Positions 25,420 to 60,900 of a stretch of 64,000 bases of DNA are shown here, piece after piece; positions within the stretch are counted from its first letter, which is position 1; every line of letters begins with the position of its first letter. Where the stretch lies: contig OX597825.1 of assembly GCA_951406725.2 (NCBI GenBank), forward strand, positions 9,362,001 through 9,426,000, read 5' to 3'. This DNA is from Octopus vulgaris. Lineage: Eukaryota. The position numbers were made by a program, and so were the translations under genes. The notes beneath the pieces were generated by a model, which searched no databases, was not told the origin of the DNA, and saw only the letters and a list, made by a program, of their open reading frames with translations.

Positions 25420-26296
25420 AGTCTGCGGAAGCACTGTAGAGTTGGCGAGTGTTCCTTTGGATGAACAAAGAAAGTATTTGACATCTGTTATGATGCACAC
25501 ACTATGCAGACCTATTATCATTACATTTCTGACTACCATCCATCGAAACTGATATATTTATACCCTGGCGATCATTGTTGGATAACATAAAAGCGTTTGA
25601 AAATTTGAGTATAGAGCGATTTTTTTTTATAAATCTTGTACATGTTTTGTCCCCTGCTTCGTATATTGTGAAGTCAATGTACTTTATGTCGTCTTGCTGT
25701 TGTGTCGGCTCCCCCAGACGAAGAAATAGACTAGCCCAATACGTAGATATAGAGGGAGAAGTCTAGACGTCGTGAAGCAGATAAGAGCGAAAAGCTGAGG
25801 GGAGTAGCAGTCGTAGTAGACTAGAGTACAGTAGACTAGAGAAGAGAGAACACAGGGTGGAATTCAAAGAACTGTCACCAGTAGTGGATTTAGTAGAAAT
25901 CGAACCACTAATGAAACATTACTAAAAAGTAAATAAGTATGTCAAATCGACAAGAAAAAAAGAAAAGAAAGGAGAAAAAGGAAAAAGAAAGAGTAAGTGT
26001 TTTGTGCTATGTTTTATAATATCGGAAAATAGAAGAACAATTTTAGAGAACATAAAACGGTTCAAATAATTGTAATGGTAGACGATGATTAAGTTTTAGT
26101 TCAAGACAGGATAAAAACGGACAGTTTAAAACGACTAATGGAAAAGCATGTGATGAGGGGCGCATGCAGCCATTCATAACCCCATTATTGTATAATCATT
26201 TCATCATATTCGTTCTATGTACTGTCCCCTCTGTAGTGTCCTGTCTGTCCTTGTTTGTACCCCTCTATGTTTGGGCCCTTGTGGCTAATAAAGAAA
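25420..26296 (+). pseudogene. Possible ancient, decayed ORF1-only retroelement ending in the SINE-B-type tail
   Basis: Tail 26243-26296 (tgtctgtccttgtttgtacccctctatgtttgggcccttgtggctaataaagaaa) matches the SINE B tail, but the upstream sequence is not SINE B. Weak peptide echoes of the 397-aa ORF: VELASVPLDE vs KFASKPIEGE, and a Lys/Arg tract then VFCAMFYN vs KFYVVLFHK. Confidence 0.4.
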
Positions 26297-26821
26297 CCGA
26301 ATAGAGAGAACGGATTAGTAGAAGGCATCCGAACGTGCAACATAACCGTGGCGACGAGGCTTTTGTAGCTCACACAGTCACTGTGTAGTATTGCAACATA
26401 ACACTTCCACAGAATCATGCATTTTTCATTACCTGCTATACCAAAAGGCAGGAAGTGTTTATATAATAATTATAACTAAAGCTCAAACCTGCCTGGTATG
26501 ACATAAGCGCGAACATGCGTCTGTGTGTGCCTATGTATCTTCTTTCCACGTTGATTACAGGCGATTTGAAATCCTGTTGCCTTCACTGGCACCAGGTAGT
26601 ATGGACATTTATAACCATAACACTTAATCACCTGCTTAAAACCTTCTGAAACCTATAACAGCTTTTGCTGGCCTGAAAGGTCTCGTCTACATCACTCCCG
26701 TTGCAGGAGACATGTTTTGAAGTGGGTGAGTAGACAACCAGAAACACACAAACACACATAGACACAGGTATACACACATGCACGCAAACAAACACACACA
26801 CAAATACACACACACACACAT

Positions 26822-35915: not shown

Positions 35916-36349
35916 CGACGAGCTTCTTTCAGTTTCCGTTTACCAACTGCACTCACAAGGCTTTGTTCGGCCCGAGGCTATAGTAGAAGACACTTGCCCA
36001 AGATGCCACCCAGTGGAACTGAACCCGGAACCATGTGGTTGGTTAGCAAGCTACTTTATTTTATATAATTTGCCACTAGGGCAGCACACAGAGTAGCTGC
36101 GGGCTGGACAAGGACATTAATGGATGATGGTGGTGGTGGATGACGATGGTGATGGGAGAAGTCAGAAAGCGCCCGCCGACTTTTGCTTCTCTAAAACAAT
36201 GTTCTTCTTTTTTTTTCAATAATTTACAAAATTTCAAAAATTACAAAAAATTCGAAAAATGTTCACAAAAATTTCAATTTACAATTTACACTTTTAAAAG
36301 TCTCTTCAGAGGCAATAAACCTCTGTCACAATGTAACACAATTACAATT

Positions 36350-37543
36350 TTACGTTACCCGACCGATGAACTCTCTTGCTTTAATGACGCAATCGTCCAT
36401 CGTCAGGCTTCCGCATACAGGTATGACTTGCAAGAGATCCTCCGGGAAAGAATTCTCGATCCTGCACATATCATTTTCGAGTAGGACCTCCGCAGCCAGC
36501 TGCGAAGGCCACTCGGGATACTCCATGCAGGACCGAAGTCCCTCCCATTGGTTTCTCTTCCTCCTCTTACGTATTTCATTTTCTACAGTGCCTCCTTTAT
36601 GGAAGAGGACTACATAAAATTTCTCCGGCATCACAACCGCCGGAGGACACATGGGAGACGCCCTCTGGGTGTTACAGTCCGCTGGTGGCGTACCGTTCCT
36701 CTTTTTCTTTTTCTTTTTACGCTGGGCCTCGGGAGGTTGAGGTTCCGGTGCTATACGCACCGGGTCCTCTTTTTCTTCCGCAGCCTCCGGTTCCTTTGGT
36801 TGGTCACCATTGCTCCCCACTCTTCTTTTTCTTTTGGAGGAGGATTTTTCCACCTCCTCACTTTGTTTCTCTCCCTCCATTGGTGGGGCAGGGAGAGGCT
36901 CTGATATTAACTTCTCCAGGATCCTACTCTGGTTCCTGGGGCAGTTTTTCTTAATGTGGCCGGTCTCCGAACACAGGTGACACTTGGGGGCGCGTCCCTC
37001 AAGTATTACCGCATACTTGGACCCGGCCATCTTCAAGAAGTCCGGCAAAACCAGACTCTTGGCCGACTGGGTCCACAGAGTCAAAGTAGCCTTTGCCCCT
37101 TCCCAGTCAGCCGCAGGCTGTATCTTCACGTTCGGGATCTTGGCGCTACCGCCACTCAGACCCCGGCGGATGGAATCTTCCACCCACTCGGGCTCAAAGC
37201 CGGGCGGCAGGCCGCAGACCCATAATCGTATCAATTTTTCCCCCTTGTAGCTGGGGAGAAACAGAATCTCTTCGCCCTCAATGGGCTTACTTGCAAATTT
37301 GCAAGCTGCTTTAGGGGAGTCAAATAGCAACCAAATCGTTGCGTATTTGACTCCCCGTTGAATATGTTTAACGGCTGGCATATAGTCTGCCAGCTCGTTC
37401 ACAATGGTGTCTCTCGGAAAAACCATGATGGTGTCGAGTGACTTTGAATATGTCCTCAGCACCACGGTTCTTTCCTCGAGTTCGTGCAAATATTTTTTGG
37501 GAGGTGTTAACTCCCACACAGTGAATTTCTTTGCCTGTGCCAT
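36350..37543 (-). CDS. Gag-like ORF1 protein, 397 aa, CCHC zinc knuckle (L1/Tx1 ORF1p-like)
   Basis: Uninterrupted ORF, GC-rich relative to its surroundings. EGRAPK-CHLCSETGHIKKNC (CX2CX4HX4C), preceded by an RRM-like region and followed by a Pro/Glu/Lys-rich linker with KRKRR and RKKKKKKR tracts. Confidence 0.85.
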   Translation of the reverse strand: MAQAKKFTVWELTPPKKYLHELEERTVVLRTYSKSLDTIMVFPRDTIVNELADYMPAVKHIQRGVKYATIWLLFDSPKAACKFASKPIEGEEILFLPSYKGEKLIRLWVCGLPPGFEPEWVEDSIRRGLSGGSAKIPNVKIQPAADWEGAKATLTLWTQSAKSLVLPDFLKMAGSKYAVILEGRAPKCHLCSETGHIKKNCPRNQSRILEKLISEPLPAPPMEGEKQSEEVEKSSSKRKRRVGSNGDQPKEPEAAEEKEDPVRIAPEPQPPEAQRKKKKKKRNGTPPADCNTQRASPMCPPAVVMPEKFYVVLFHKGGTVENEIRKRRKRNQWEGLRSCMEYPEWPSQLAAEVLLENDMCRIENSFPEDLLQVIPVCGSLTMDDCVIKAREFIGRVT

Positions 37544-37820
37544 AACGTAAAATACAACAGTTCAAAATGATAAACTAAAATTAGCCACAGAAAGGAGAAT
37601 GAAAAAATGCAACAGAAGGGAAGAAATAAAATTGAAAATGGCAGTACAAAAAAGTTTTTACAAATAAATAATAGACAGAGAAAGAGAGTTCAATTCAGAC
37701 AAAGGAATTAATTTTTCTTTTTTTTTTTTTGTTCACTTTTTCGGCCAAAAATTGTATTCCAGGCCAAATACACTGTTGGTAAAACCCTTGGTAAATAATC
37801 CTTGGTAATCCGTGGACAAC

Positions 37821-38438
37821 ACAACGACAATTTCAACAATAATTTTTTTCAGACGGACTATGCCGCTTCAAAAATACAATTTCTTTTCACTCGACACAGG
37901 CAGAAAAATTATATCTGGAGCAAAGTGGAGCCTTATTATTTGCTAAAAAATATTAAATGCTAAAAAACATTCATGCAAGTAATAAAACTTCACTAAACTC
38001 GCAAAAACACAAAACGCCCACCCGCAGTCGATTCGAACGTTCAACAATTCACGTTGAAACAACGCGACATCAATACAATTTTCTTTCCACTCGACACAGG
38101 CAGAAAAATTATATCTGGAGCAGAGTGGAGCCTTATTATCTGCTAAAAATATTAAATGCTAAAAAAAACATTAACAAGTAATAAAACAACGACAATTTCA
38201 AAAATAATTTTTGCAGACGGACTACGCCACCTCAAAAACACAATTTTCTTCACACCCGACAACAGGCAGAAAAATTATATCCGGAGCAAAGTGGAGCCTT
38301 ATTATCTGCTAAAAAATATTTAATGCTAAAAAACATTAATGCAAGTAATAAAACTTCACTTCGCTCTCAAAAATACAAAATTCCTACCTTTAGTCGAGTC
38401 TCAAGATTCAATATTTCACGTTGAAACAACGTGGCATC
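37821..38438 (-). repeat. 5' UTR tandem repeats: two ~250-bp units plus a third ~115-bp partial unit
   Basis: Core acaggcagaaaaattatatctggagc...gtggagccttattat.tgctaaaaa at ~37896, ~38096 and ~38262. Confidence 0.9.
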
Positions 38439-38449
38439 TGGAGCAGCAA

Positions 38450-38473
38450 AATAACACGTCCGAACAGTTCAGA
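38450..38473 (-). promoter_or_regulatory. Putative internal Pol II promoter motif (CGGACGTG, DPE-like)
   Basis: Element 5' end reads tctgaactgttCGGACGTGtt; (A/G)GACGTG motifs are typical near the 5' ends of invertebrate LINEs. Confidence 0.45.
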
Positions 38474-39262
38474 GGTTAGCAAGCTACTTACCACACAGCC
38501 ACTCCTGCGCCTATATATTCTTTATAAATTATTTTCTTAATTGTCTCTGCAACATCTTGTTTCTTGAATTTTTTCTCGCCGTTTGTATTTCAATAGTTTT
38601 ATTTAAAGATGAATTTAACAGTTTCTAATTTTTTTTTTTTTGTGGGGGGGGGGTGATAAGATGTTGCTGTTCTTGTTCTTACTGCGTTTGACATTCTTTC
38701 CTTTACTTTGGTTGTCATTGTCCATAATGCTGATGTCGGGATGGGTGTTGGTGATAGTGGTCGCATTGTTGTTAAAATTTAATCTTTATTTTGTTGCTGT
38801 TCTTATTGTTATAGATGTTCGTTCTTGTTATAGTTATTTTTATCACCGTCACCTATTGCATTGATATCAATGGTAGTGATGCTGCTGCGACTGCTGCTGC
38901 TGCTGCGACTGCTGCTGCTGCTGCTCCTTTCACTTACAGTCACTCTTATGTTGGTGTAGGAGGTTTTAAGTCTGTCGTTTCAAATACTCATTAAATCTTT
39001 CCGGTACTCCGTCGAAAATGTCGATACCGTGACTTTTTTTCATTAGAGGATTATGCTTCAGGAGAAAAATCTTCATCGACATCCTGATCCAGGTTACCTT
39101 AGGGAACAAAACTGTGCAAAGAGCTTTTTACCTTAAATATTTTAACCGCAATTAAACCTGACAAATCTTACGATCAATTTCAGGGATGCCATGCTGATAT
39201 AAAAACAAAACAAAAACGACGATAACAACTGAAATAATAATAATAATAATAATAATAATAAG

Positions 39263-39378
39263 CCCTTCTACTGAAGGTATGTGGCCTAAAATTTGGCGGG
39301 GTGGAATAGTCGATTACATCGATCCCAGGGTTTCACTGGTATTTAATTCATCGACCCTGAAAGGATGAAAGCAAAGTT
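39263..39378 (-). mobile_element. Meta-type SINE fragment with alternative tail ending in (TTA)n
   Basis: Minus: ctttgctttcatcctttcagggtcgatgaattaaataccagt...gggatcgatgtaatcgact, then ccgccaaattttaggccacatacc...(TTA)n. Confidence 0.7.
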
Positions 39379-45528: not shown

Positions 45529-48500
45529 TCAGCAGCATCAATAATGATTCGTTCTTTCTAATTTTGGCACAGGGCAAACAATTTTAAGGGACGACGACTT
45601 ATTGATTATATTGAATCCAGTATTTGACTAATACATATTTTATTAATCCCAAAGGGATGAAAGATAGAGATGAGGTTGTAACATCACTAATACTAAGAAG
45701 AAAAGCGCCAAAAGTCGCAGAGCAACCAGAAGGAAAATGGGAACGACGAAAGTTCTTCGAAGACGAATTGCCAAATTTTGATATATTCAAAAAGCAGAAG
45801 CGGCAATGTCGTCAACACAATTAAGTGTGACAGTGGTGTATGTGGGACATGCATTGAGTACGCCACCACCACTATATTAACCTCTTCCAGAGCAGTGAAA
45901 AGGAACACCAACATGGTAAAGACAACCACAGCCACTGCTGCGTACACCAGCTGTTTCAAACTGTGCAGGTATACCTTTAGACAGTGAATACTTGAAGGAT
46001 CCTAAAGCGAGAAGTCACTATCAACATTATATTGTGTAATATTATATTGTATGTGTGAGTTTGTGAGCGCAAGTGGTCAGGTCTCTTAAGAGGGCTATAA
46101 ATGATATATAACGAGTCAGACTATTGCAGAGTGGGTCGCTGGCAGCAATGCTGCCAACCCCAGGAAGTTTGCTTCGTCAGGAAGGTGTTGTTGGACATTA
46201 TAAACGATGAAGAACTAGACTTGCCAAATAACAGATATTATTGTTGTAGTCTAGAGCCATCCAATAATGTGTACATATCTGCATTTAACGTGTGACCATG
46301 TTTGTTTATTGGGAAAGTTTCATTTCATTCAAATCTAGTATGGAAGTAATCAGTAAACTACATAATTGATTCGAAACCGGTGGTAACAGTCTTATGGGAC
46401 TTTACTGCTACAGACTGGATCGTTTCCTCGTGATGGGGTAGAAGTTATGATCCAGAGCAAATATCGGAAATGATGTTTTATGGACTGAATACAGAGTTTA
46501 TGTTACTGCGAGATATGAAACCGATGAAGTTATAAAGGAGTTGAAAAGAATCATATCTTCAGCTCCCTTGTATCTTTGTCATTCTCATAAAAACTGTGTT
46601 GTCTTGATCCTATCATGCCACTGTGTATATTGTGTGAGAAAAAGAGACTGGGTTTGGTGTACACGCAGCATATTCTTACCTTTCTACATTTCAAATGCTT
46701 TGCGCTAGTCTTGAAACTCTTTCTAGCAAATCAGTGACTAAAAAGGTTGCTAGTAGCAACGGAAGAGCTTTGACAAACAAAAGCAAAACAAGGGACTTAC
46801 TGTTTAACCAAATTAAATATACAATCGATTAGTTAGTTGGATATTCGATCGGTTGACCAATAATATAGGAATGGAATTGAACCGGTACGAGTGTTAATAA
46901 TATTGGCATAATGACTCTCGGTAGCTATAACGAAAAATACAGCATCGGAGGAAGAATTTGGGTTTAGTGCTCCTGGTATATAATTGCATCTTCATTAGTA
47001 ATGTATGAAGATACCGACTGATTACGCAGTCGTTATCTTCGTACATTCCAGATGCCTGAAAGACCCTGCAGCTTCGCACTTCCGGACCATTATTTGCAAT
47101 AGTGAAGATATCACCAATATGCGACAATGAAATACCGCCATTTTGTAGCTTGAAGCGCAGAGATGTGAAATAGAAGGATGCAGTTGTTATTCTCTGCCTC
47201 TTGCATGACTGTATCTGCAATAATGTCATGAGATGCTCATACACTTACGGAAAAAAACCGATCGTGTTGTAAATTTCAACTATAAGTATGCTAAAAATAC
47301 CTTGGAGGCGTATGAAATCAAAACAATTTCATCTCCCGTGGCAAGCAATGCGACACAATTTGCGATTATCTTCTGAAAAAAATTACAGCTCAAAAATATC
47401 AATTTTTTTGAAAACAACGATTCTGTGTATTAATTCCTCTGTATATGGGGTTAAAGATGACAGTCACGGATGTTTCAACAGGAAAAAAAACTTTTTAGTG
47501 GCTGATACCATCTCCTATACATGAGAAAGAAGGTTTGCGATGAATAGTGCATAGAGAAAATTTACAGAGAGACACACAGACAGACAGGCAATGTGTGTAT
47601 GGTCGGAGATGGAGATTACTGTCAAGCAAGAGACCTAGAGAAAATAATCTACCATCAAAGTCCCAAACAGCATAAACTTATTGGTGGTGGTGCACGGTAG
47701 AAAGCTCAAACATTAGCTCTGCTATACTAACTCAGATTTAAGGGGTTTCTGTCCTCCGCAACAACGAATAATAAAGAGCACATCCAAACTTCTGTTGATC
47801 CAACATCAAAGCATATGAACAACGATAAAAAACAACAACAGTGGGAGCTAATTTCATTTTAAATCCCCTCATTTTTTATTTCCAGATCTTTTATATTTTG
47901 CTTATTCTATTTTCAGAGATACATTACCATTTGTCGAGTGTGGTGTGTAGATCAGAAGATACTTGTTTTCGGAAAAGCCTTTCATAACAATATCGTATCG
48001 ATTTGCCTTAATGTCCAAGTCTTTCTAGATTATCATATTCCCGATATTGGTTACATTCTTTCGGATATATTTTATGTTCATACAGTCTCTTTCTCTTGTT
48101 ATATCACAATGATACTGTAATTTTCTGTGCATGAAAGCTATAACCCTGGCATGTCTGTGTACATGTTTTCTATTTCGGTTACAACTGACCAGCAGCTAAC
48201 ATTATGGCAAATCGTTTGTGATGGGAAGGCTTTGATCTTATGCTGCAATCAAAATCCTTTTGTTCTAATATTCAGTCTTCGCCCTGCAACGTCTTTTTGC
48301 CAAATACTTAGCATGATATTACGAAGTTCCAGTTTCAGTTCATCTTCCTTTTAACTACATCTGGTCTTCATTCTTGTCAGAACTTCAATTTCTAAACAAT
48401 GATTTTATTTGTATCCATTTATACATTTATGCATTTATTATTTTGCTATTTTGTATTTTCTGGTTCTCTTTAGACGTTTCTATTACGAAATAGTTTTTGT

Positions 48501-51752: not shown

Positions 51753-52586
51753 CCTAAACCTACATAGCTACACACTTTCAAAATGATATTATATAACGGT
51801 TATATGTGTATTACAATATCTTTGGCATAATCTAGCTCCATAGTCTTGTATTGACAATGGATATCAAACTTCCGTGTGTAACAGTTTGAATACCTAAGAT
51901 CATACACAGAATGCTAATTTCAACGCCTGGCTGGGATAAATATAAAAATTATTCAAGTCGCAACATAAAAGCCATACATCTTTAGCATATAAACACACAG
52001 AATATTTCCATATAAGGACATATGTACATTATGAATATTTACAAAAGTTGTTGGTCATAAATTATAACTTCACTGCATATTTTAACCAAATCTCATTCAT
52101 GTGATTTTCTAATGAATTACTGACAAATAGTGAAGTCAATAATGAGAAGCGTAATAAGATTTTAATCATCACGCAATCTCACTATAACATTTACATATGC
52201 TTTACCAATGCAAATACTATGTGTATTAATAACAGTTGCATTTCTTCAAAATATGAACGTGTGTATATATGTGTACATGCATTTATGTGTATACAAAACA
52301 CACTCATGCATATATGTATTTTTGTGTGTGTTTTACTGTTCCATTAAGGTAGGATCAACAAAAGCAGTGCTCAGTCAAGTGAGAGACAAACTTCATTTAA
52401 TGTATATTGTATAAGAGCTTCTGATAGTTTCTTGCCATTGAGACACGTGGTTAGTCAGACTTTTATACAAAGCCTTGTGTCTCCAAGCAATCATCAACCT
52501 CTGGACACATGGTTTGTTCTAAGAGAACAAACTATAGCAAGGAACTATTAGTAGCTTTTATTTTAAAACAGTGTATATAATATGTA

Positions 52587-53867
52587 CTGGGTTGGCAAAA
52601 AAGTAATTTCGTTTTCCGCAAATAGTTAGTGTTAGGATTTTTTTGAATGACTTTTGTTACTGTTATGAAGTTTTTCCTTTTGACATATGATAGCCGTTAC
52701 TTTTAACTTACTTTATAAGCAAATTACGCATAAATTTGCTCACTGTTGTTAGTTCAGTGTCAATTTTAACATGGAGTGCAAAAACGAATATTTTCGCCAT
52801 ATTTTGCTTTTTTATTTCCACAAAGGCAAGAAAGCTACTAAGGCTCACAAAGCGATATGTATAGTTTATGCTATTGGTTGCTTAACAGAACGCACATGTC
52901 AGAAATGGTTTTAAAAATTCCGTTCTGGAGATTTTTGACTCAAAGATGATTAACCTTCTGGTTGATGATGACCAAATGAAAGCCCTAATTGAATCTGATT
53001 GTTATATAACTGCACGAGAGATTGCAGAGAGGTTATATGTATCATACACAACAATTGAAAATCACTTAAAATATCTTGGACTCATTAAGAATCTCGATAT
53101 CTGGGTTCCACATAAATTGGAAAAGATTCACTTAACACATTGAATCAATATTTGCGATATGCATCTCGAATGCAATGGAATCGACCTTTTTGTTGCGACG
53201 AATCATCGCTGGTGGTGGAAAATTGATTGTGTACAATAACATCAATCGAAAACGATCATGGTCCAAGCGTGATTAACTATAAACAAACCACGTCGAAAGC
53301 TGAATTGCATAAAAAAAAGGGCCTACTGTCAATTTGGTGAAATAATAAAGGTGTTGTGTAATTTGAGTTGCTTCCAAGGAACCAAACGATCAATTCAGAT
53401 GTTTAGTGTCATCAACTAAGGAAACTGGAGGAAGCAATCAAAGAAAAACTCCCAGAATTGGCATATCGTAAAGGAATCGTATTCCATCATGACAACGCTA
53501 GACCACACGCGTCTTTTCTAACTCTTGAAAAATTCTTAGAGATTGATTGGGAAGTGATGTCATATGAATGATATAGCCATGACCGTGCACCATCAGATAA
53601 CCATTTATTTCAAAGTTTGCAAAATTCTTTGAATGGTAAAACTCTCAATAACCATGATAACCTAGAAGTGCACTTGCTTCAGTTTTTGGCTGGTAAAGAC
53701 CAGAAGTTCTATTAGCGCGGAATTATGAAGTTACCAGAAAGATGGCAAAAGGTCATTGAACAAAATGGAAAATATGTAATTTTCATACAAAGTCCATTTT
53801 TTGGTATGAAAAAAAAATTACTTTTATGTCACACTAAAAAACTGAAATTACTTTCCTGGCAACCCAA
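52587..53867 (+). mobile_element. Dead mariner transposon (mellifera-subfamily-like)
   Basis: TA-flanked TIRs ctgggttggcaaaaaagtaatttc / gaaattactttcctggcaacccaa. ATG at 52771: MECKNEYFRHILLFYFHKGKKATKAH; WVPHKL, HHDNARPH, YSHDRAPSDNHLF, LPERWQKVIEQNGKY. In-frame stops. Confidence 0.95.
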
Positions 53868-55599
53868 TATCTATATGTGTGTGAGTGTGTGTGTATGTGT
53901 GTACGTGTGTACGTGTGTATATTCTTTTACTTGTTTCAGTCATTTGACTGCGGCCATGCTTATCAAGCCTCTAAAATACCCTGGATAAAGCTGAAAGCGC
54001 TTAAAGAGGCGTCACTGTAGATGCTTGAAAATCTGTTACTATAATATCTACACACATTGAATCCTGTGCATAGTACTAGATATCTCCATCTTCGGGGTAA
54101 GTAGGAATATTTTGATTGACTCCTGTTTCTCGAAGAGACGGCATACAAACATGAGTTTTGTAGGCGCGAGTTTTGTTTTCTCTCTATTTCAGTTACATTT
54201 CATCTTATGTAAGATTTAAGATGTCTATTTAGAAGGCACTCCAATAGAGTAAAGACTTGGTATTGATGATGTTTGATGCAAGTTCTGGTAGGTATGCAGT
54301 GAGACGCGTAATGCACATAGTATTTATTTTTCGATATTGGAGTATTTCAGCATTTTTGGTCTGGTTCCTTTGTACGGTTCGTCAGTATTTTAACTGCTTG
54401 TAGGGCAGTTATATAAATGATATAGATAACGCTTTGTTTGAAATATTATTTTTTTTTCCATAACGTATGATTTCGAGAGATGTTGTCTGTTTAGTTTCAG
54501 TGACTGAATTTGTGAACAACCGAAGGCTGGTCTCGTTTTAGAGTTTATAACATTGTTTATTTTTTTGTCTTCTTATTTTTCCTTTTCGTTTGTAATAAAA
54601 TATATCTTCTTTTGTTTCTCTTCATCAAATATTTTTTATAGATTTTTGGTTTTTCTTTTTTAGCCCTTTCGTATGTGCTAGGTGCGTCAATCTTTTGTTA
54701 TTTCGATCTTCTTTCCTAAATATCTACCAGTAAATTATACTTTTACATTGATACTTATTTATATTTGGTCGGAAGCTACCATTTTTTCCTTTATTTTTGG
54801 AATCACCCGTTGTCTGTGTATCCAGATGAAATATTTAGAATAGCATTCGAATCTATTTTGTTCAGTTTTTATAAAAGAAGCTTCTGTTCTTCTTTTCGTT
54901 CTTTTGCTCCAGTTGAACTCTGATCGAGCAGTCGTTTGATTAAAGGTGTTCGAACCATAACGATATCATCTGAATCGTATGTGTAGTTCATCCAGGACAA
55001 ACAAACCTCGATAAGGCAAAAGTGGCTGAGAAGAGGTTAGTGCAACAATGCACGCCTGAAAGAGATTCAAGTGTTGTGTTTGACGATATTGCAAAGAACT
55101 GACGCGAGTGCAAAGGATTTTGGGAGAAATATGATGAATGATGCAAGCGCTTTTAGCTTTTAGATACGAAATAGATCCGGCAGGGGAAAGCTGCGCAGGA
55201 GATTCCAGCAAAAGTATAAGATGCATGAAGGAAATTTTTCGTGCCTAACATATGTCTTGCATCCATTGTGATGCATTAATTGATATTCATGATCACGTCT
55301 TTGTGTGAGGATCTTCTATTTTATAACCCGCTTTAATGAGCGGTATCAATCAATAAGTTATAAGCGTTATAGAGCTCAAGCTATATCTGGATAATGACTT
55401 GCAGTCATTAAAGCAAGCCAAATAGAGCTCTAGCTGACTACCTTGGCATATGTTTACACCGATTTATGGATGTGTAGGCTAAGCCAACAAAAGTTTGGTC
55501 CCTTAATCAATGATATAGAACCTTAGCAATAACAACGTATGTACTATCGGTTTTCTTGCGAATCTACAATTCTACGTATAGATGATCATTCAAAAGATA

Positions 55600-56285
55600 C
55601 TTAATCTATCTATCGGGGTCGTCCCTCAGGAAGCCCCAAGACTGTTTCCACACATTTCCGCCCACTCATCTCGAAATTCCATAATGGTCCTCAGCTCCTG
55701 TACCCCCTTCCATACCAGTATCCTCCAGCAAGTAGTCGATATAGGTCGTCTTATAGCAAGTAGTCGATACTGCGGCGAGCTGGCAGAAACCTCTGCAGTT
55801 ACATTCTGAGTTCAAATTCCGCCGAGGTCCACTTTGCCTTTCATCCTTTCGAGGTCGTTAAATTAAATGCCAGTTACGCACTGTAGTCGATATAATCGAC
55901 TTAATCCGTCTGTCTGTCCTTGTTTGTCTCCTATGTGTTTAGCTCCTTGTGGGTAGTATAGAAATAGATATAGGTCGTCTTACTCCTTCCTCTCCTGGTT
56001 CTTCCTTCCGTTCGTTGCCAGACCTCTAGCTTGTTAGCAATCTCATCGCTATGCTTGATGCAGTGTCCAGCTAGCTTCATCCTTCTATGCTGTATCTTCA
56101 GTGCTACTTTTGGTAGTGGCTAGTATAACCCAGCGTTTGCTGCATGACTTTCAGGAGATATTGAGTGACATTCTAAGCATTCAACTGCTTCTTCAATGCT
56201 TTAGTGAGCGTCCATGCTTGGGCCCCGTATAGAAGAACAGATTCCACTGTTGCCAGAAACAACCTCACTTTCAATTTCCTTGCTA
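55600..56285 (-). pseudogene. 3' fragment of RTE/RTE-X-like LINE, interrupted by a SINE
   Basis: RKLKVRLFLATVESVLLYGAQAWTLTKALKKQL...RRMKLAGHCIKH...KTTYIDYLLEDTG...ELRTIMEFRDEW. Confidence 0.82.
55771..55966 (+). mobile_element. Meta-type SINE (family B), internally deleted
   Basis: Matches 57706-57935; TSD gatataggtcgtctta at 55738-55753 and 55967-55982. Confidence 0.9.
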
Positions 56286-56803: not shown

Positions 56804-57705
56804 TTATATATATATATATATTTATATATGTGTGTGTGTATGGGTAGGTGTGGTGTATGTATGTATATGTGTGTGTATATTTATATATCAAACAATATTC
56901 ATACCAAGACTGAAAGGATAATTGTAAAAATATAATTTTTAAAATATTACAAGAATCTAAGAATTAGAAATACCGTTAAGATACAAAGGGGACTCATGAA
57001 TCACATTATATTATCATACTGATTATTGTTTCATACAGATAAGTCAGGCTGAAAGAAACTGGTCTAGAATTCATTATACGTTGTTAAAAATATTTACTTT
57101 TCGTTTACATTCACATTTTTAGTTTAGTTGGATTAGTCTGTGTTGTGTTATGTCATTAAATTTGAAATAGCAGAGAACGGAACACTATACTGTCGCCTGG
57201 AATTAATTTTTTATTGATATAAGCTAAAGAAGTTTAATAAACGCTCACACACATTCACACACACACTCGCTAACTGTTCAGAAAGCCAAGTTAGTTTGAA
57301 GTAAATATGAAATGGATATGGTTACTGATTTAATTCAGATCAAAGCAATTCGCACCAGTGCAAAATATGAAAATAAAATGTATGAAATGACGGAAATAGT
57401 AATAAATATACGCATACACAGTGAGACACAGACACAGAAGCAGATGCATGCCAGCAGACATACATTCGCAATTATATACACACATACGGACACAAACAAA
57501 GATATTGGTTGCGGCTTTCGTGGTAGGAAGACGATCGGTTAGAAAACAATCTGTCTTAGATTATATAATTAATACATTTGAGATGTTTTCTAAGCGATTG
57601 TAGAGTTATAACATTTTAGTAAAAAGGTGACGAAAAGTCGGGTATCTTTGGCGAATCGTTAAGTTAATGATAAAATCGGGTAATTTTGACGAATCGTTAA
57701 GTTAA

Positions 57706-57938
57706 GGCAGCGAGCTGGCAGAATCATTAGTACGCCGGACGAAATGCTTAGCGGTATTTCGTCTGCCGCTATGTTCTGAGTTCAAATTCCGCCGAGGTCG
57801 ACTTTACCTTTCATCCTTTCGGGGTCGATTAAAAAGTACCAGTTACGCACTGGGGTCGATGTAATCGACTTAATTCTTTTGTCCGTCCTTGTTTGTCCCC
57901 TCTGTGTTTAGCCCCTTGTGGGCAATAAAAAAAAATAT
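57706..57938 (+). mobile_element. Meta-type SINE (family B), full length
   Basis: A-box TGGCAGAATCA-like, B-box GAGTTCAAATTCC, Meta-like core gtcgactttacctttcatcctttcggggtcgattaaaaagtaccag; TSD tcgttaagttaa (57694-57705 / 57939-57950). Confidence 0.9.
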
Positions 57939-60900
57939 TCGTTAAGTTAAATTGACGGAAGCAAACGAAGCAGATTGTCAAAGACACACACACACTTATA
58001 TATACACATATATATATATCACTTAAAATGCATTGAATAGTCGAGTACTATAGTAGAGGTCACTTGTTCAGGGTGCTGCTTCGTTGGACTGAACATGAAT
58101 CCAACCAGCTTGAAGACGAGCTTCCTGGCGATACAGTCATGTTTGCGACCATTGAAATGCCCATGCCTGTACACACACTCACCCAAACATAGATGTATAT
58201 GTGTGTGTATGTGCACGCGCATTTGAGTATGCACGTGAGAGCGGTGTGTGAGAGAGGAAGTGAGAGAGATGTTAGTGACGGCAGTACTCTTTGTAAGAAA
58301 TATCAATAAGCTTTAAACAATATAAGCAGCCGTAATCGTCCCCATAGATAATCTCCTACAGACATTTTGTGCTAAGTAGCACAGATTACATCGGCGGGTG
58401 AAATATCGGCAATATCGGTGGCCCAATGTTAAGTCGAATGTCCGTGTGGCTACGTCACCTGCGTGTCATATATTGCGCTGTATTTTACTGTACTTAAATT
58501 TAAATCAGGCAATTATCAGAAGTTTTATTGCATTTTCCCCCTGGTGGTCATATAAAATGTATTTGCAATTCACATACGAAACATGGATACAAAAATAATA
58601 ATAAAACGAGATTAAAGGCATCAATAAACTATGCGATCTCATAATAGCTATGTCTTTATATGGCTTACTCTTCGTAGGCATACAGATATATATCTGATAT
58701 TGCTTTATACATACTATATTAATCAATTTGCAAGTATAGTACTTGGTCTGCCTGACCTGTTTATCACGATGTCAAAATTGATCACAATTTCATATCTTAT
58801 GTCGGTGGGAATCGGTATTACATTTGTTATGTTATCATTAAATTCCACAGAGATTCTATAATCTACATAGGTCGTATTTAATGATAAACTTCATATTGAT
58901 TCTATGGATCTCAACACAACATTTGTAATATTTATAAGTTATACATCTCTGTAGTTCTGCTTAGCACCCCAAAGCATATAAATCACGATCAATCTCAATT
59001 AAGTGACTGAGATTTAACATTGCTATGATAGCGTTCCTAATATTCATTGACATCCCGTCTATTTGATTATATGAGCCATACGAGTGTTAAGCATTGGGAT
59101 ATATGCAATCTGGCTTGTGATAAAGGTCTACCGCGTTATTATCTTACTATCGTGGTCTACATAACATATCTAGTTTAATATTTGAAATAGTAAATGTTCA
59201 AAATATTTATATATATTTGATACCTACTCACTAGATTTACATTTGTCGGTTTAGCAATAAATCAGTAGATATTCTTCAGAATCTAATTTAAGCGTATGAG
59301 ATTTGAAATGATGCGTGTTTCCATGCATAACTGGAATATGTTGCTCCATCTGATCACGGATCATCTTTGTTAAAATGTTTATCTGGACTTGCTTAACATC
59401 TCTGTCCCTCCTCCATCACTTCGAGAATATCCGTAGCTACATGTGACTATATACCATTCAATGCTGCTCTGTTGGACACTCATACTGACCTGCTTGCATG
59501 TCTACCTCCGACGTTGCATGTAACAGTAGCTATTATTTTGGCTTTTTCCTCATTGACGTAAAAAAGCCCCTATATATGAATCTCTTTGGGGTGCCATTTA
59601 ACATATTAGCACAAGGGGTCAGTATGGAGAGCCACTACAATTTCATGCCGCCTTTCGACGTCCCACACGAATTTCAAGTACTTTTCAGCTGGCATTGTAT
59701 AAATGATATTTGATTAAGTGTCCTTTTGGTGGTCATGCGGTGAGGATGATATTTGTATTTCTTTCGCTATTGGCGTTGGTGGTGATGTTGGTCTCCAGCA
59801 CAACTTCTATGATGCACAAACGTAGCACTCTTTCTGGTGATCCTTTTGTGGCTGTTGTAGCAAGTCCCTGTTGTTGCTATAAACTATTTTGCATTTGCAC
59901 AGATTCGATGCAACGTCATCGGTGATGAAGCTGTTAGTATGGGTTCGTGACTAACTGGCGGTGATTATGGCAGCTGTGATGGGCGTTAATAGTGCCGATC
60001 TCACATATATACATTCCTGCTTTCACTTTTTACCGCAATGGGTTTGATATTACAATATTTTCAAAACAAAAGAAATGGGATGATTTTACTAGGTTTACGA
60101 GAAAAATAGCGAGAAAATATTCATTTCATTACGATCTCTGTCTCACAACAATAATAAAATATAATTTTTTTTTAATATTTATTAGGACAAAAATAAAAAT
60201 CGTGACATGTTGTCAGAAATAAAAAATATTTTTATAATAACAAAAACTGTGACCGCATTTTTTAAAAATTAGACAAGCATTTCTCAATTCTCTAATTTCG
60301 TATCAAACTATACGTCAAGTTTTACAAAAATTTCTGGAGCACTTTGCATTAAAACTGTTTTAAAAATACTGTTACGAAGTTATTGTTTTCTGTCTTCATT
60401 CATCATACAAAATTATGAACAACACGTTTTTATATCAAATTATAAATACGTTTTTCCGTATGCTCAATGTGTTGCCTTGAATTTTTTAAGATTATATTTT
60501 CAAAAACTCGTGGCGAGTAGTTTTGAGAATCATTGCGATATTTACTGTGCTATTATTCTTTTTCGATGTGTATTTAGTATTTATAATCCCCCAGTCAAAA
60601 TTGTATACATGTATATGAATTCCTCAAGCATTGGAATTTGTGAAATGTAGGATAACTCCATCTGGGGAAGATATGAACTCAAATTTGTTATCACTAAATA
60701 GAATTTACGTATATCTGTCCTCTTTGATTGCTTTACATAAAATCCATACCAATAATAAATACGGAGTTGCCCCATGCACCGCTTCTTAAATTTGTTTAAA
60801 AATGATGAAAAGAAACATGGTTCTTATCAATACGCTTATTATACACTCGTTAGTGGGGTGATTGCAAACAACAGTCTCTTAATCTTTCTGCAAAGTAGTT

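What the first reader, a model, noticed from the sequence alone, without database searches (positions are those of the whole stretch)
36057..36125. 3' tail of the ORF1-only element resembles the tail of the Meta-type SINEs: a possible shared parasite guild
Seen: element tail (minus) TGTCCTTGT-ccagcccgcagcta-CTCTGTGT-gct-GCCC-ta-GTGG-CAA-attatataaaata versus SINE B tail (57884-57935) cGTCCTTGT-ttgtccc-CTCTGTGT-tta-GCCCc-tt-GTGG-g-CAA-taaaaaa. The same blocks occur in the same order, both at the extreme 3' end, and both element types have 12-16-bp TSDs. Known: many SINEs share 3' tails with the LINE that mobilises them, whereas mammalian L1 is tail-independent. Inference: a tail-recognising L1/Tx1-type LINE drives both the SINE and the ORF1-only element, a three-component system.
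Basis: partly seen in the sequence, partly recalled or inferred. Interest (0 to 1): 0.75.

Follow-up and report, generated by a model that had tools for sequence, protein, structure and literature searches.

The report
Octopus retroposons share a tail hairpin
In this likely octopus genome, a short SINE and two different retroposon families that encode only an RNA-binding protein end in the same small stem-loop, which also ends complete L1/Tx1-type LINEs of another animal, so all likely borrow the copying enzyme of a tail-reading LINE whose octopus version was not found.

Summary
Observation partly confirmed, interpretation partly supported. The blocks and 12-16-bp TSDs are real, but the element-A/SINE match is modest: significant under lenient scoring (0 of 5000 shuffles), weaker under strict scoring (19 of 5000), and missed by blastn and by a SINE-tail HMM. 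The robust shared part is a 4-bp hairpin with a CU(U/A)GU loop just before AAUAAA. New: the '26243' tail is not a SINE. It ends a second, very divergent ORF1-only family (ORF1 C-terminus, stop, 370-nt UTR), and its tail is 85% identical to the SINE's. Homologous ORF1s sit directly before an EN-RT ORF2 most like LINE-1 in complete LINEs found as animal DNA mis-binned in two bacterial MAGs. These end in a hairpin with the same loop and compensatory stem changes (3 of 4 pairs), and one copy has a 14-bp TSD. They are relatives, not the partner: separate ORF1 clade, and whole-tail models do not cross-detect. No octopus ORF2 was found. The 'Meta' label is unsupported. Verdict: HAL1-like elements plus a LINE-tailed SINE, unusual in pointing to tail recognition by an animal L1/Tx1. 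Interest 0.55.

The parts
36057..38473 (-). Element A: 2417-bp ORF1-only (HAL1-like) non-LTR retroposon inserted in a tRNA-derived SINE (OK-type, name recalled)
   Evidence: multicopy contigs in 4 of 4 runs; no ORF2 similarity anywhere in the window
36350..37543 (-). ORF1, 397 aa: two predicted RRM-like domains, one CCHC knuckle, disordered basic linker, small C-terminal domain
   Evidence: Pfam zf-CCHC E 0.0011, just below cut-off; AlphaFold2 model, mean pLDDT 72; Foldseek best hits are tandem-RRM proteins; 61% to an Octopus sinensis protein
36057..36125 (-). 3' tail of element A (the finding)
36071..36083 (-). Terminal hairpin of element A: 4-bp stem, CUAGU loop, followed by an A-rich end with AAUAAA
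36041..36056 (-). 3' copy of the 16-bp target-site duplication of element A
38474..38489 (-). 5' copy of the 16-bp target-site duplication of element A
37818..38438 (-). 5' UTR of element A with a tandem duplication of about 367-bp period (86% identical over 257 bp)
25852..26298 (+). Element B ('T26'): 5'-truncated copy of a second ORF1-only family (ORF1 C-terminus, stop, 370-nt UTR, tail); probable 13-bp TSD with 2 mismatches at 25839-25851 / 26299-26311
25854..25925 (+). Last 23 codons and stop of element B's ORF1; 78% identical to the extreme C-terminus of P0012 (Octopus bimaculoides CCHC protein)
   Evidence: tblastn E 1.5e-7 in a 2-kb region, 2.8e-5 in the window; source
26242..26296 (+). 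Tail of element B, 85% identical to the SINE-57 tail; hairpin at 26274-26286 with CUUGU loop
   Evidence: blastn E 7e-12; nhmmer from SINE tails only, E 1.4e-9
57706..57935 (+). tRNA-derived SINE ('SINE B') with the shared tail; hairpin 57911-57923; 12-bp TSD 57694-57705 / 57939-57950
55772..55966 (+). Second, internally deleted copy of the SINE; hairpin 55942-55954; 16-bp TSD 55738-55753 / 55967-55982
39255..39371 (-). Decayed copy of the same SINE body with a different tail ending in (TTA)n; this tail resembles the autonomous LINE tails
   Evidence: body 84%; 0 of 500 shuffles lenient, 6 of 500 strict; top nhmmer hit but E only 0.26
47579..47788 (+). Third, decayed ORF1 remnant (region before and across the knuckle); no tail seen
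   Evidence: hmmsearch E 3.8e-4; tblastn E 3e-4

Best explanation
The stretch is the 3' end of an ORF1-only retroposon, and it shares with the window's tRNA-derived SINE and with a second ORF1-only family a terminal 4-bp hairpin with a CU(U/A)GU loop before AAUAAA, which likely is the 3'-end signal read by the reverse transcriptase of a not-yet-found L1/Tx1-type LINE. Inferred steps: L1/Tx1 LINEs lost ORF2 by internal deletion but kept the 5' UTR, ORF1 and the tail (HAL1-type). A tRNA SINE took on the tail of the element-B lineage by template switching. All are copied in trans by target-primed reverse transcription, which gives 12-16-bp TSDs and no long poly(A). The SINE tail comes from the B lineage rather than from A; A and B share mainly the old hairpin signal.
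For: (1) A descriptor that fits 12 of 12 autonomous tails (closing C-G pair, CUHGU loop, stem >=3, AAUAAA with <=1 mismatch within 25 nt) hits exactly the four tails on both strands of the window; shuffled windows give 0.66 on average, 0 of 200 reach 4. (2) Over 12 tails (4 window, 8 autonomous) 47 of 48 cells pair, 3 of 4 pairs change on both sides, covariation 0.595 vs 0.156, 0 of 500 shuffles; slid controls <=0.17. RNAalifold found the hairpin from the four window tails alone, before I read the autonomous tails; the strict version of that motif is in 5 of 12 autonomous tails vs 6 of 24000 shuffles. (3) ORF1 homology to the autonomous elements: blastp 3e-10; octopod profile vs a profile of their clade 4e-24. 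Their ORF2 has RVT_1, Exo_endo_phos and zf-RVT, best PDB hit LINE-1 ORF2p E 6e-74 vs R2 9e-24. (4) A dispersed autonomous copy (L023) has a 14-bp TSD directly after AAUAAA, like the window elements. (5) Element B joins an ORF1 stop to a SINE-like tail within 370 nt. (6) Contigs from four runs bridge A's ORF1 stop to the same non-coding sequence (depth 515, 101, 20 and 619), so lack of ORF2 there is a family trait. (7) O. vulgaris has 13 recently active L1-Tx1 families (PMC13282606 Table 1).
Against: No octopus LINE with this tail was found. The autonomous relatives are a separate ORF1 clade (97/99 support) and have a second hairpin before AAUAAA that the window tails lack. Covariance models do not cross-detect in either direction, and pairwise scores of the A, B and SINE-57 tails against the autonomous tails are at chance level. 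SINE-tail HMMs miss the A tail. The shared core is only 7 nt plus a short stem. The loop degeneracy and stem >=3 were set after seeing the autonomous tails, and these are near-copies of one lineage plus one family at 49% ORF2 identity, so they count as one or two events. None of five decayed, more distant family ends read in G002 has the exact motif; two show a variant loop (by eye). No functional test.
Confidence: 0.55

Rival explanations
1. The hairpin plus AAUAAA is a conserved 3'-end processing or stability signal read by host factors. Mobilisation is relaxed (poly(A)/A-rich), and the SINE only carries the tail as a passenger from a template switch.
For: The motif always sits next to AAUAAA and elements end a few bases after it. 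[quoted passage not shown] The Tx1-Mar/SINEU link rests on target preference and shared heads (PMC4494074 section 16).
Against: No long poly(A) is seen at the ends of A, B, SINE-55 or L023; SINE-57 has only about 9 A. Both SINE copies keep the stem, with one- and two-sided changes. A second tail type on the same SINE body also resembles L1/Tx1 tails, which fits repeated selection for such tails.
Confidence: 0.2
2. There are separate pairs rather than one guild. The SINE pairs with the element-B lineage; element A is moved by another L1/Tx1 family, and its resemblance upstream of the hairpin is largely chance among pyrimidine-rich tails.
For: A vs B 30 of 51, A vs SINE-57 34 of 52, B vs SINE-57 47 of 55. 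The upstream blocks alone are marginal. A's ORF1 is on a long branch far from the B-like P0012. A folds into a longer hairpin of its own (z -2.6) that the other three tails lack.
Against: Lenient whole-tail scores reach 0 of 5000.
Confidence: 0.17
3. The tail comes from a LINE of another clade (RTE, Dong-R4, I/Nimb) and was grafted onto L1/Tx1 ORF1 elements, so the driver is unrelated to the ORF1 donor.
For: RTE (13) and Dong-R4 (5) families are also recently active in O. vulgaris. Whole-tail models fail between the window and the L1/Tx1 relatives.
Against: It needs two grafts, onto two very divergent ORF1 families, and it leaves the same loop at the same place in ORF1-related L1/Tx1 LINEs as a coincidence (6 of 24000 shuffles).
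Confidence: 0.08

Closest known systems
HAL1 (half-L1; Smit 1999, Bao and Jurka 2010), with HeT-A and Ag-Sponge as ORF1-present non-autonomous LINEs (passages of PMC5753468 and PMC5786205; the HAL1 paper itself is not held)
   Same: 5' UTR + ORF1 + 3' tail, no ORF2, TSD, derived from an L1-group LINE, more than one family
   Different: Invertebrate host; ORF1 of the two-RRM + CCHC type; at least two very divergent families; ends in a structured tail shared with a SINE instead of plain poly(A)
Maize/sorghum ZmSINE2, ZmSINE3 with LINE1-1_ZM and Chlamydomonas SINEX-3_CR with L1-1_CR (Ohshima 2012, PMC3472496 part 1; PMC3747384 Table 1)
   Same: L1-clade 3' end of about 50 nt shared with SINEs; hairpin with conserved loop, variable stem and compensatory changes
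   Different: Those are plants and an alga, and the partner LINE is known; loop UCU there, CUHGU here; here ORF1-only members share the tail and the partner is missing
SINEU with Tx1-Mar of crocodilians (Kojima 2015, PMC4494074 passages and section 16)
   Same: An animal Tx1-clade LINE inferred to move a SINE in trans
   Different: That link rests on target preference and shared snRNA heads; here it rests on the 3' tail, and the head is tRNA-like
MetaSINEs (Nishihara 2016, PMC4824008) and CORE-SINEs such as octopus OR2
   Same: tRNA head, conserved body, exchangeable tails (two tail types on one body in this window)
   Different: No evident Meta-domain match by eye; the body looks CORE-like from recall only; the family name could not be fixed

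Membership tests
HAL1-type ORF1-only non-autonomous LINE | Encodes only an ORF1 homologous to that of an L1-group LINE | tested here: met
   no ORF2 similarity in the window
HAL1-type ORF1-only non-autonomous LINE | Retrotransposed as a unit (TSD, A-rich end) and multicopy with the same ORF1-UTR junction | tested here: met
   16-bp TSD; high-depth contigs across the ORF1 stop in 4 of 4 runs; no listed contig spans from ORF1 to the tail
HAL1-type ORF1-only non-autonomous LINE | 5' and 3' parts traceable to one autonomous parent in the same genome | not testable with these tools
   No genome held; UTRs have no blastn match of note in the fetched loci, best E 0.13
L1/Tx1 group (autonomous relatives) | ORF1 followed by ORF2 with APE endonuclease, RT and C-terminal zinc finger, RT closest to L1 | tested here: met
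   the PDB offers only L1 and R2 hits for comparison
Tx1 clade as distinct from L1 | RT phylogeny with Tx1 references; often target-specific | not testable with these tools
   No named Tx1 reference was returned; head-to-tail arrays suggest self-targeting
Stringent LINE/SINE pair | SINE 3' end matches the 3' end of an autonomous LINE of the same genome | tested here: inconclusive
   85% match to an ORF1-only LINE derivative; only the hairpin matches autonomous LINEs of another host
Stringent LINE/SINE pair | Conserved 3' stem-loop with compensatory changes | tested here: met
   short (4 bp) and not strongly stable alone
Stringent LINE/SINE pair | Tail required for retrotransposition | not testable with these tools
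   Needs a cell assay
MetaSINE | 66-bp Meta domain directly after the tRNA head | tested here: inconclusive
   By-eye comparison with the supplement's BivaMeta alignments shows no match; the Meta consensus is in a figure that is not held, and no computed comparison was run
CORE-SINE | 65-bp CORE domain | not tested

The most novel reading that the evidence does not exclude
Cephalopod L1/Tx1 LINEs are stringent, tail-reading elements. A CUHGU-loop hairpin is an old recognition signal that supports a whole guild in octopods: a long-diversified radiation of ORF1-only elements (12 octopod ORF1 rows in the tree, none yet seen with an ORF2) and a SINE that has swapped between two L1/Tx1 tails. This would be an animal counterpart of the stringent plant L1 lineage and would support stringency as the ancestral L1 state.
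Probability: 0.3. Interest if true: 0.75.

Novelty: new variant of a known kind. Interest (0 to 1): 0.55.

Why it matters
[quoted passage not shown] A covarying hairpin shared by animal L1/Tx1 LINEs, two ORF1-only families and a SINE makes the question of ancestral stringency testable in animals with a 13-nt element. Intact candidate drivers are at hand: near-identical full-length ORF2 copies in G001. It also offers a candidate motor for an octopus SINE (SINEs are 11.6% of the O. vulgaris genome, PMC13282606) and a case of ORF1-present derivatives sharing a tail with SINEs.

Tried and rejected
No whole genome for the window. Tail-pattern scans found 0 stretches in viral contigs (the pattern did not fit element A), metagenome contigs and GTDB genomes. 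ORF1 locus scans found none in viral contigs and metagenome contigs. Searches for ORF1 fused to ORF2 among longer proteins found none (weak evidence, and one search covered only 1508-4305 aa). Octopod ORF1 profile in 49 genomes of G001's family: only G001 matches, which fits mis-binned animal DNA. Covariance models: autonomous tails vs window, none of the four tails among 21 hits; window tails vs 14 loci and vs G001/G002, nothing below E 0.4. SINE B has no relative in G001/G002, and only one exact autonomous-type tail is in G002. Rfam and ARAGORN found nothing in the window and Rfam nothing in five loci. The tile hit at 52801-52871 (-) lies, by my recall, at the end of a mariner-like element and was rejected as chance. 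A 27-nt match between the UTRs of A and B upstream of the tails gave 2 of 1000 shuffles under strict and 152 of 1000 under lenient scoring: not counted. Sequencing runs: no RNA holder listed. In one search the SINE flanks swamped the joint and loose-end tables, so target preference and any ORF2 junction could not be read. At 36077 the SINE-like letter made up 93%, 71%, 65% and 12% of depth in X8, X4, X3 and X1; the origin of those contigs is unknown, so I do not count it. Earlier-findings look-ups by place, sequence and first words were empty. Literature searches showed no report of this tail, but Repbase/Dfam entries, the Zenodo library of PMC13282606, the SINEBase supplements and subscription papers (Ohshima and Okada 1994; Bao and Jurka 2010) were not seen and may already annotate it.

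Full report
Setting. No genome is held for the window. The host is likely an Octopus species: the element's protein is 61% identical to an O. sinensis protein, and other named relatives are from O. bimaculoides, O. vulgaris and Argonauta.

Element A. It spans 38473 to 36057 on the minus strand (2417 bp) and has an exact 16-bp TSD. It interrupts a tRNA-derived SINE whose intact site occurs six more times in the window (the family name OK is recalled). It holds a 5' UTR with a tandem duplication, one 397-aa ORF and a 293-nt 3' UTR. The protein has a CCHC knuckle. A predicted model gives two RRM-like domains whose best structural matches are tandem-RRM proteins, and Atlas neighbours include ZCCHC3-like clusters. 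tblastn with a related ORF2 finds nothing in the window. Contigs from 4 of 4 runs cover all 30 bins. Contigs of depth 515 (36210-36508, 2 differences), 101, 20 and 619 cross the ORF1 stop into the same non-coding sequence. So the family is multicopy and lacks an ORF2 at that junction; no listed contig reaches from ORF1 to the tail.

The observation. The blocks are there, but the strength depends on scoring. A vs SINE-57 gives 0, 0, 1 and 19 of 5000 shuffles under four schemes; A vs SINE-55 gives 34, 36, 244 and 400. blastn and SINE-tail HMMs miss the A tail, and the blocks upstream of the hairpin are marginal alone. What survives is a 4-bp stem with a CU(U/A)GU loop just before AAUAAA, which RNAalifold found from the four window tails. 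It is not strongly stable: the SINE and B tails fold no better than shuffles, and A folds into a longer hairpin of its own.

A second ORF1-only family. The tail at 26243-26296 has no SINE body upstream. Positions 25854-25922 encode 23 residues that are 78% identical to the extreme C-terminus of P0012, an O. bimaculoides ORF1 relative, with the stop at the same place. A probable 13-bp TSD with two mismatches ends just before the match begins. This is a 5'-truncated copy in which the ORF1 stop is followed by about 370 nt and the tail, with no room for an ORF2. Its tail is 47 of 55 identical to SINE-57, and an HMM from the two SINE tails alone finds it at E 1.4e-9. P0012 and A's ORF1 lie far apart in the tree. 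The strong SINE link is therefore to family B, and the weaker one to A.

The ORF1 donor. A scan of GTDB genomes gave 23 loci in two bacterial MAGs. They are evidently mis-binned animal DNA: 0 of 48 other genomes of G001's family match. I did not determine the host. There an ORF1 of about 640-700 aa is followed directly by a 1155-aa ORF2 with endonuclease, RT and zinc-finger domains, closest to LINE-1 ORF2p among solved structures (E 6e-74; R2 9e-24). The ORF1 is homologous to A's, and a profile of its clade matches the octopod profile. L1 versus Tx1 could not be separated for lack of named references. A dispersed copy (L023) has a 14-bp TSD directly after AAUAAA. In the overlapping loci L001-L022, 37 of 37 full ORF2 ends with 900 nt downstream have a hairpin with a CUHGU loop (redundant copies). 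Twelve distinct tails, including one family at 49% ORF2 identity, keep it. Their loops include CUUGU and CUAGU, the two seen in the window.

Testing the motif. On 12 aligned hairpins (4 window, 8 of the 12 autonomous; L023, L070, L071 and L074 left out as near-duplicates), 47 of 48 cells pair and 3 of 4 pairs change on both sides. The covariation score is 0.595 against 0.156 (0 of 500) and <=0.17 for slid partners; the count of covarying pairs alone is reached by 49 of 500 shuffles. A descriptor of the motif hits exactly the four tails in the window; shuffles give 0.66 on average with one mismatch allowed in AAUAAA, but 14 of 200 shuffles reach 4 with two mismatches and a 3-bp stem. The strict window-derived motif is in 5 of 12 autonomous tails against 6 of 24000 shuffles; the relaxed one is in 12 of 12 against 28 of 24000. 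Against: covariance models fail both ways; whole-tail scores of A, B and SINE-57 against the autonomous tails are at chance; the autonomous tails have a second hairpin; their ORF1s form a separate clade (97/99); and of five decayed, more distant family ends read in G002 none has the exact motif and two show a variant loop (by eye). These LINEs are relatives that show what the lineage's 3' end looks like. They are not the partner.

A side result. A decayed copy of the same SINE body at 39255-39371 (-) has another tail, and this one resembles the autonomous tails (0 of 500 lenient, 6 of 500 strict; top nhmmer hit at only E 0.26). It suggests that the SINE has carried two different L1/Tx1-type tails.

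Mechanism. Shown: the architecture, the TSDs, the ORF1 homology to L1/Tx1-type LINEs, the near identity of the SINE and B tails, and the shared covarying hairpin. Inferred: origin by ORF2 loss, tail capture by template switch, trans-mobilisation, and recognition of the hairpin by ORF2p (0.55). Rivals: a host 3'-processing signal with relaxed mobilisation (0.2), separate pairs (0.17), a tail from another clade (0.08).

What is known. ORF1-present non-autonomous LINEs (HAL1, HeT-A, Ag-Sponge) are described in passages of PMC5753468 and PMC5786205. L1-tailed SINEs were three in the 2012 survey, from maize and Chlamydomonas, with a hairpin of conserved loop and variable stem (PMC3472496 part 1 of 3; PMC3747384 passages and Table 1). 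The animal Tx1/SINEU case rests on targets and heads (PMC4494074 passages and section 16). MetaSINEs include a cuttlefish family and have unknown partners (PMC4824008 parts 2-3 of 6, supplement part 1 of 4 and passages); the SINE here shows no evident Meta match by eye. O. vulgaris has 13 recently active L1-Tx1 families (PMC13282606 parts 1-2 of 3 and a supplement search). PMC5804259, PMC4758252, PMC3531059, PMC9223172 and PMC8967140 were seen as passages only. Nine searches showed no report of this tail; Repbase, Dfam and subscription papers were not seen.

Verdict. A new variant of known kinds: HAL1-like elements and a LINE-tailed SINE, with good circumstantial evidence that an animal L1/Tx1 lineage uses a structured tail. 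The driver is missing and function is untested. Interest 0.55.

Noticed in passing
L001-L022 (G001 contigs C3-C19): Head-to-tail arrays of intact 6.45-kb L1/Tx1-type LINEs in several subfamilies (ORF2 91-100% identical, one family 49%). Each tail runs into the 5' end of the next unit, and in L021 the last unit is followed by the same dozen bases before unique DNA, which suggests self-targeted insertion.
   Followed up: partly
G001 and G002 (GTDB MAGs titled Arenicella sp. and Rhodospirillales bacterium): Both bacterial MAGs contain animal DNA (many contigs in G001; the 539-kb contig C16 in G002); 0 of 48 other genomes of G001's family have the ORF1.
   Followed up: partly
window 39255-39371 (-): Same SINE body with a different tail ending in (TTA)n that resembles the autonomous L1/Tx1 tails; suggests tail exchange.
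   Followed up: partly
window 47579-47788 (+): Third decayed ORF1 remnant, with no tail or ORF2 seen nearby.
   Followed up: partly
window 36150-36191 (-): A second predicted hairpin in element A's 3' UTR (not significant alone, z -0.5); contig depth there is about tenfold higher than in the adjacent UTR, with other letters at 36162 and 36165, so it may be shared with other families.
   Followed up: no
window 36041-36056 / 38474-38489: Element A sits in the head of an abundant tRNA SINE; Tx1 elements are often target-specific, but one copy cannot show preference (six other intact sites in the window).
   Followed up: partly
L002 17358 (-) and L023 9216 (-): A SINE-like repeat in the other host's DNA also has a 4-bp stem with a CUUGU loop about 35 nt before an A-rich stretch; either the motif is more general or less specific than assumed.
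   Followed up: no
window about 55600-56200 (-): The SINE copy at 55772-55966 sits in decayed coding-like sequence that resembles the C-terminus of an RTE-type LINE (recalled resemblance).
   Followed up: no
window about 52580-53870: Decayed mariner-like DNA transposon (recalled resemblance).
   Followed up: no
P0033 (O. sinensis gene model): A predicted protein fuses about 40 residues of an element-A-like ORF1 start to an integrase core; probably a chimeric gene model.
   Followed up: no
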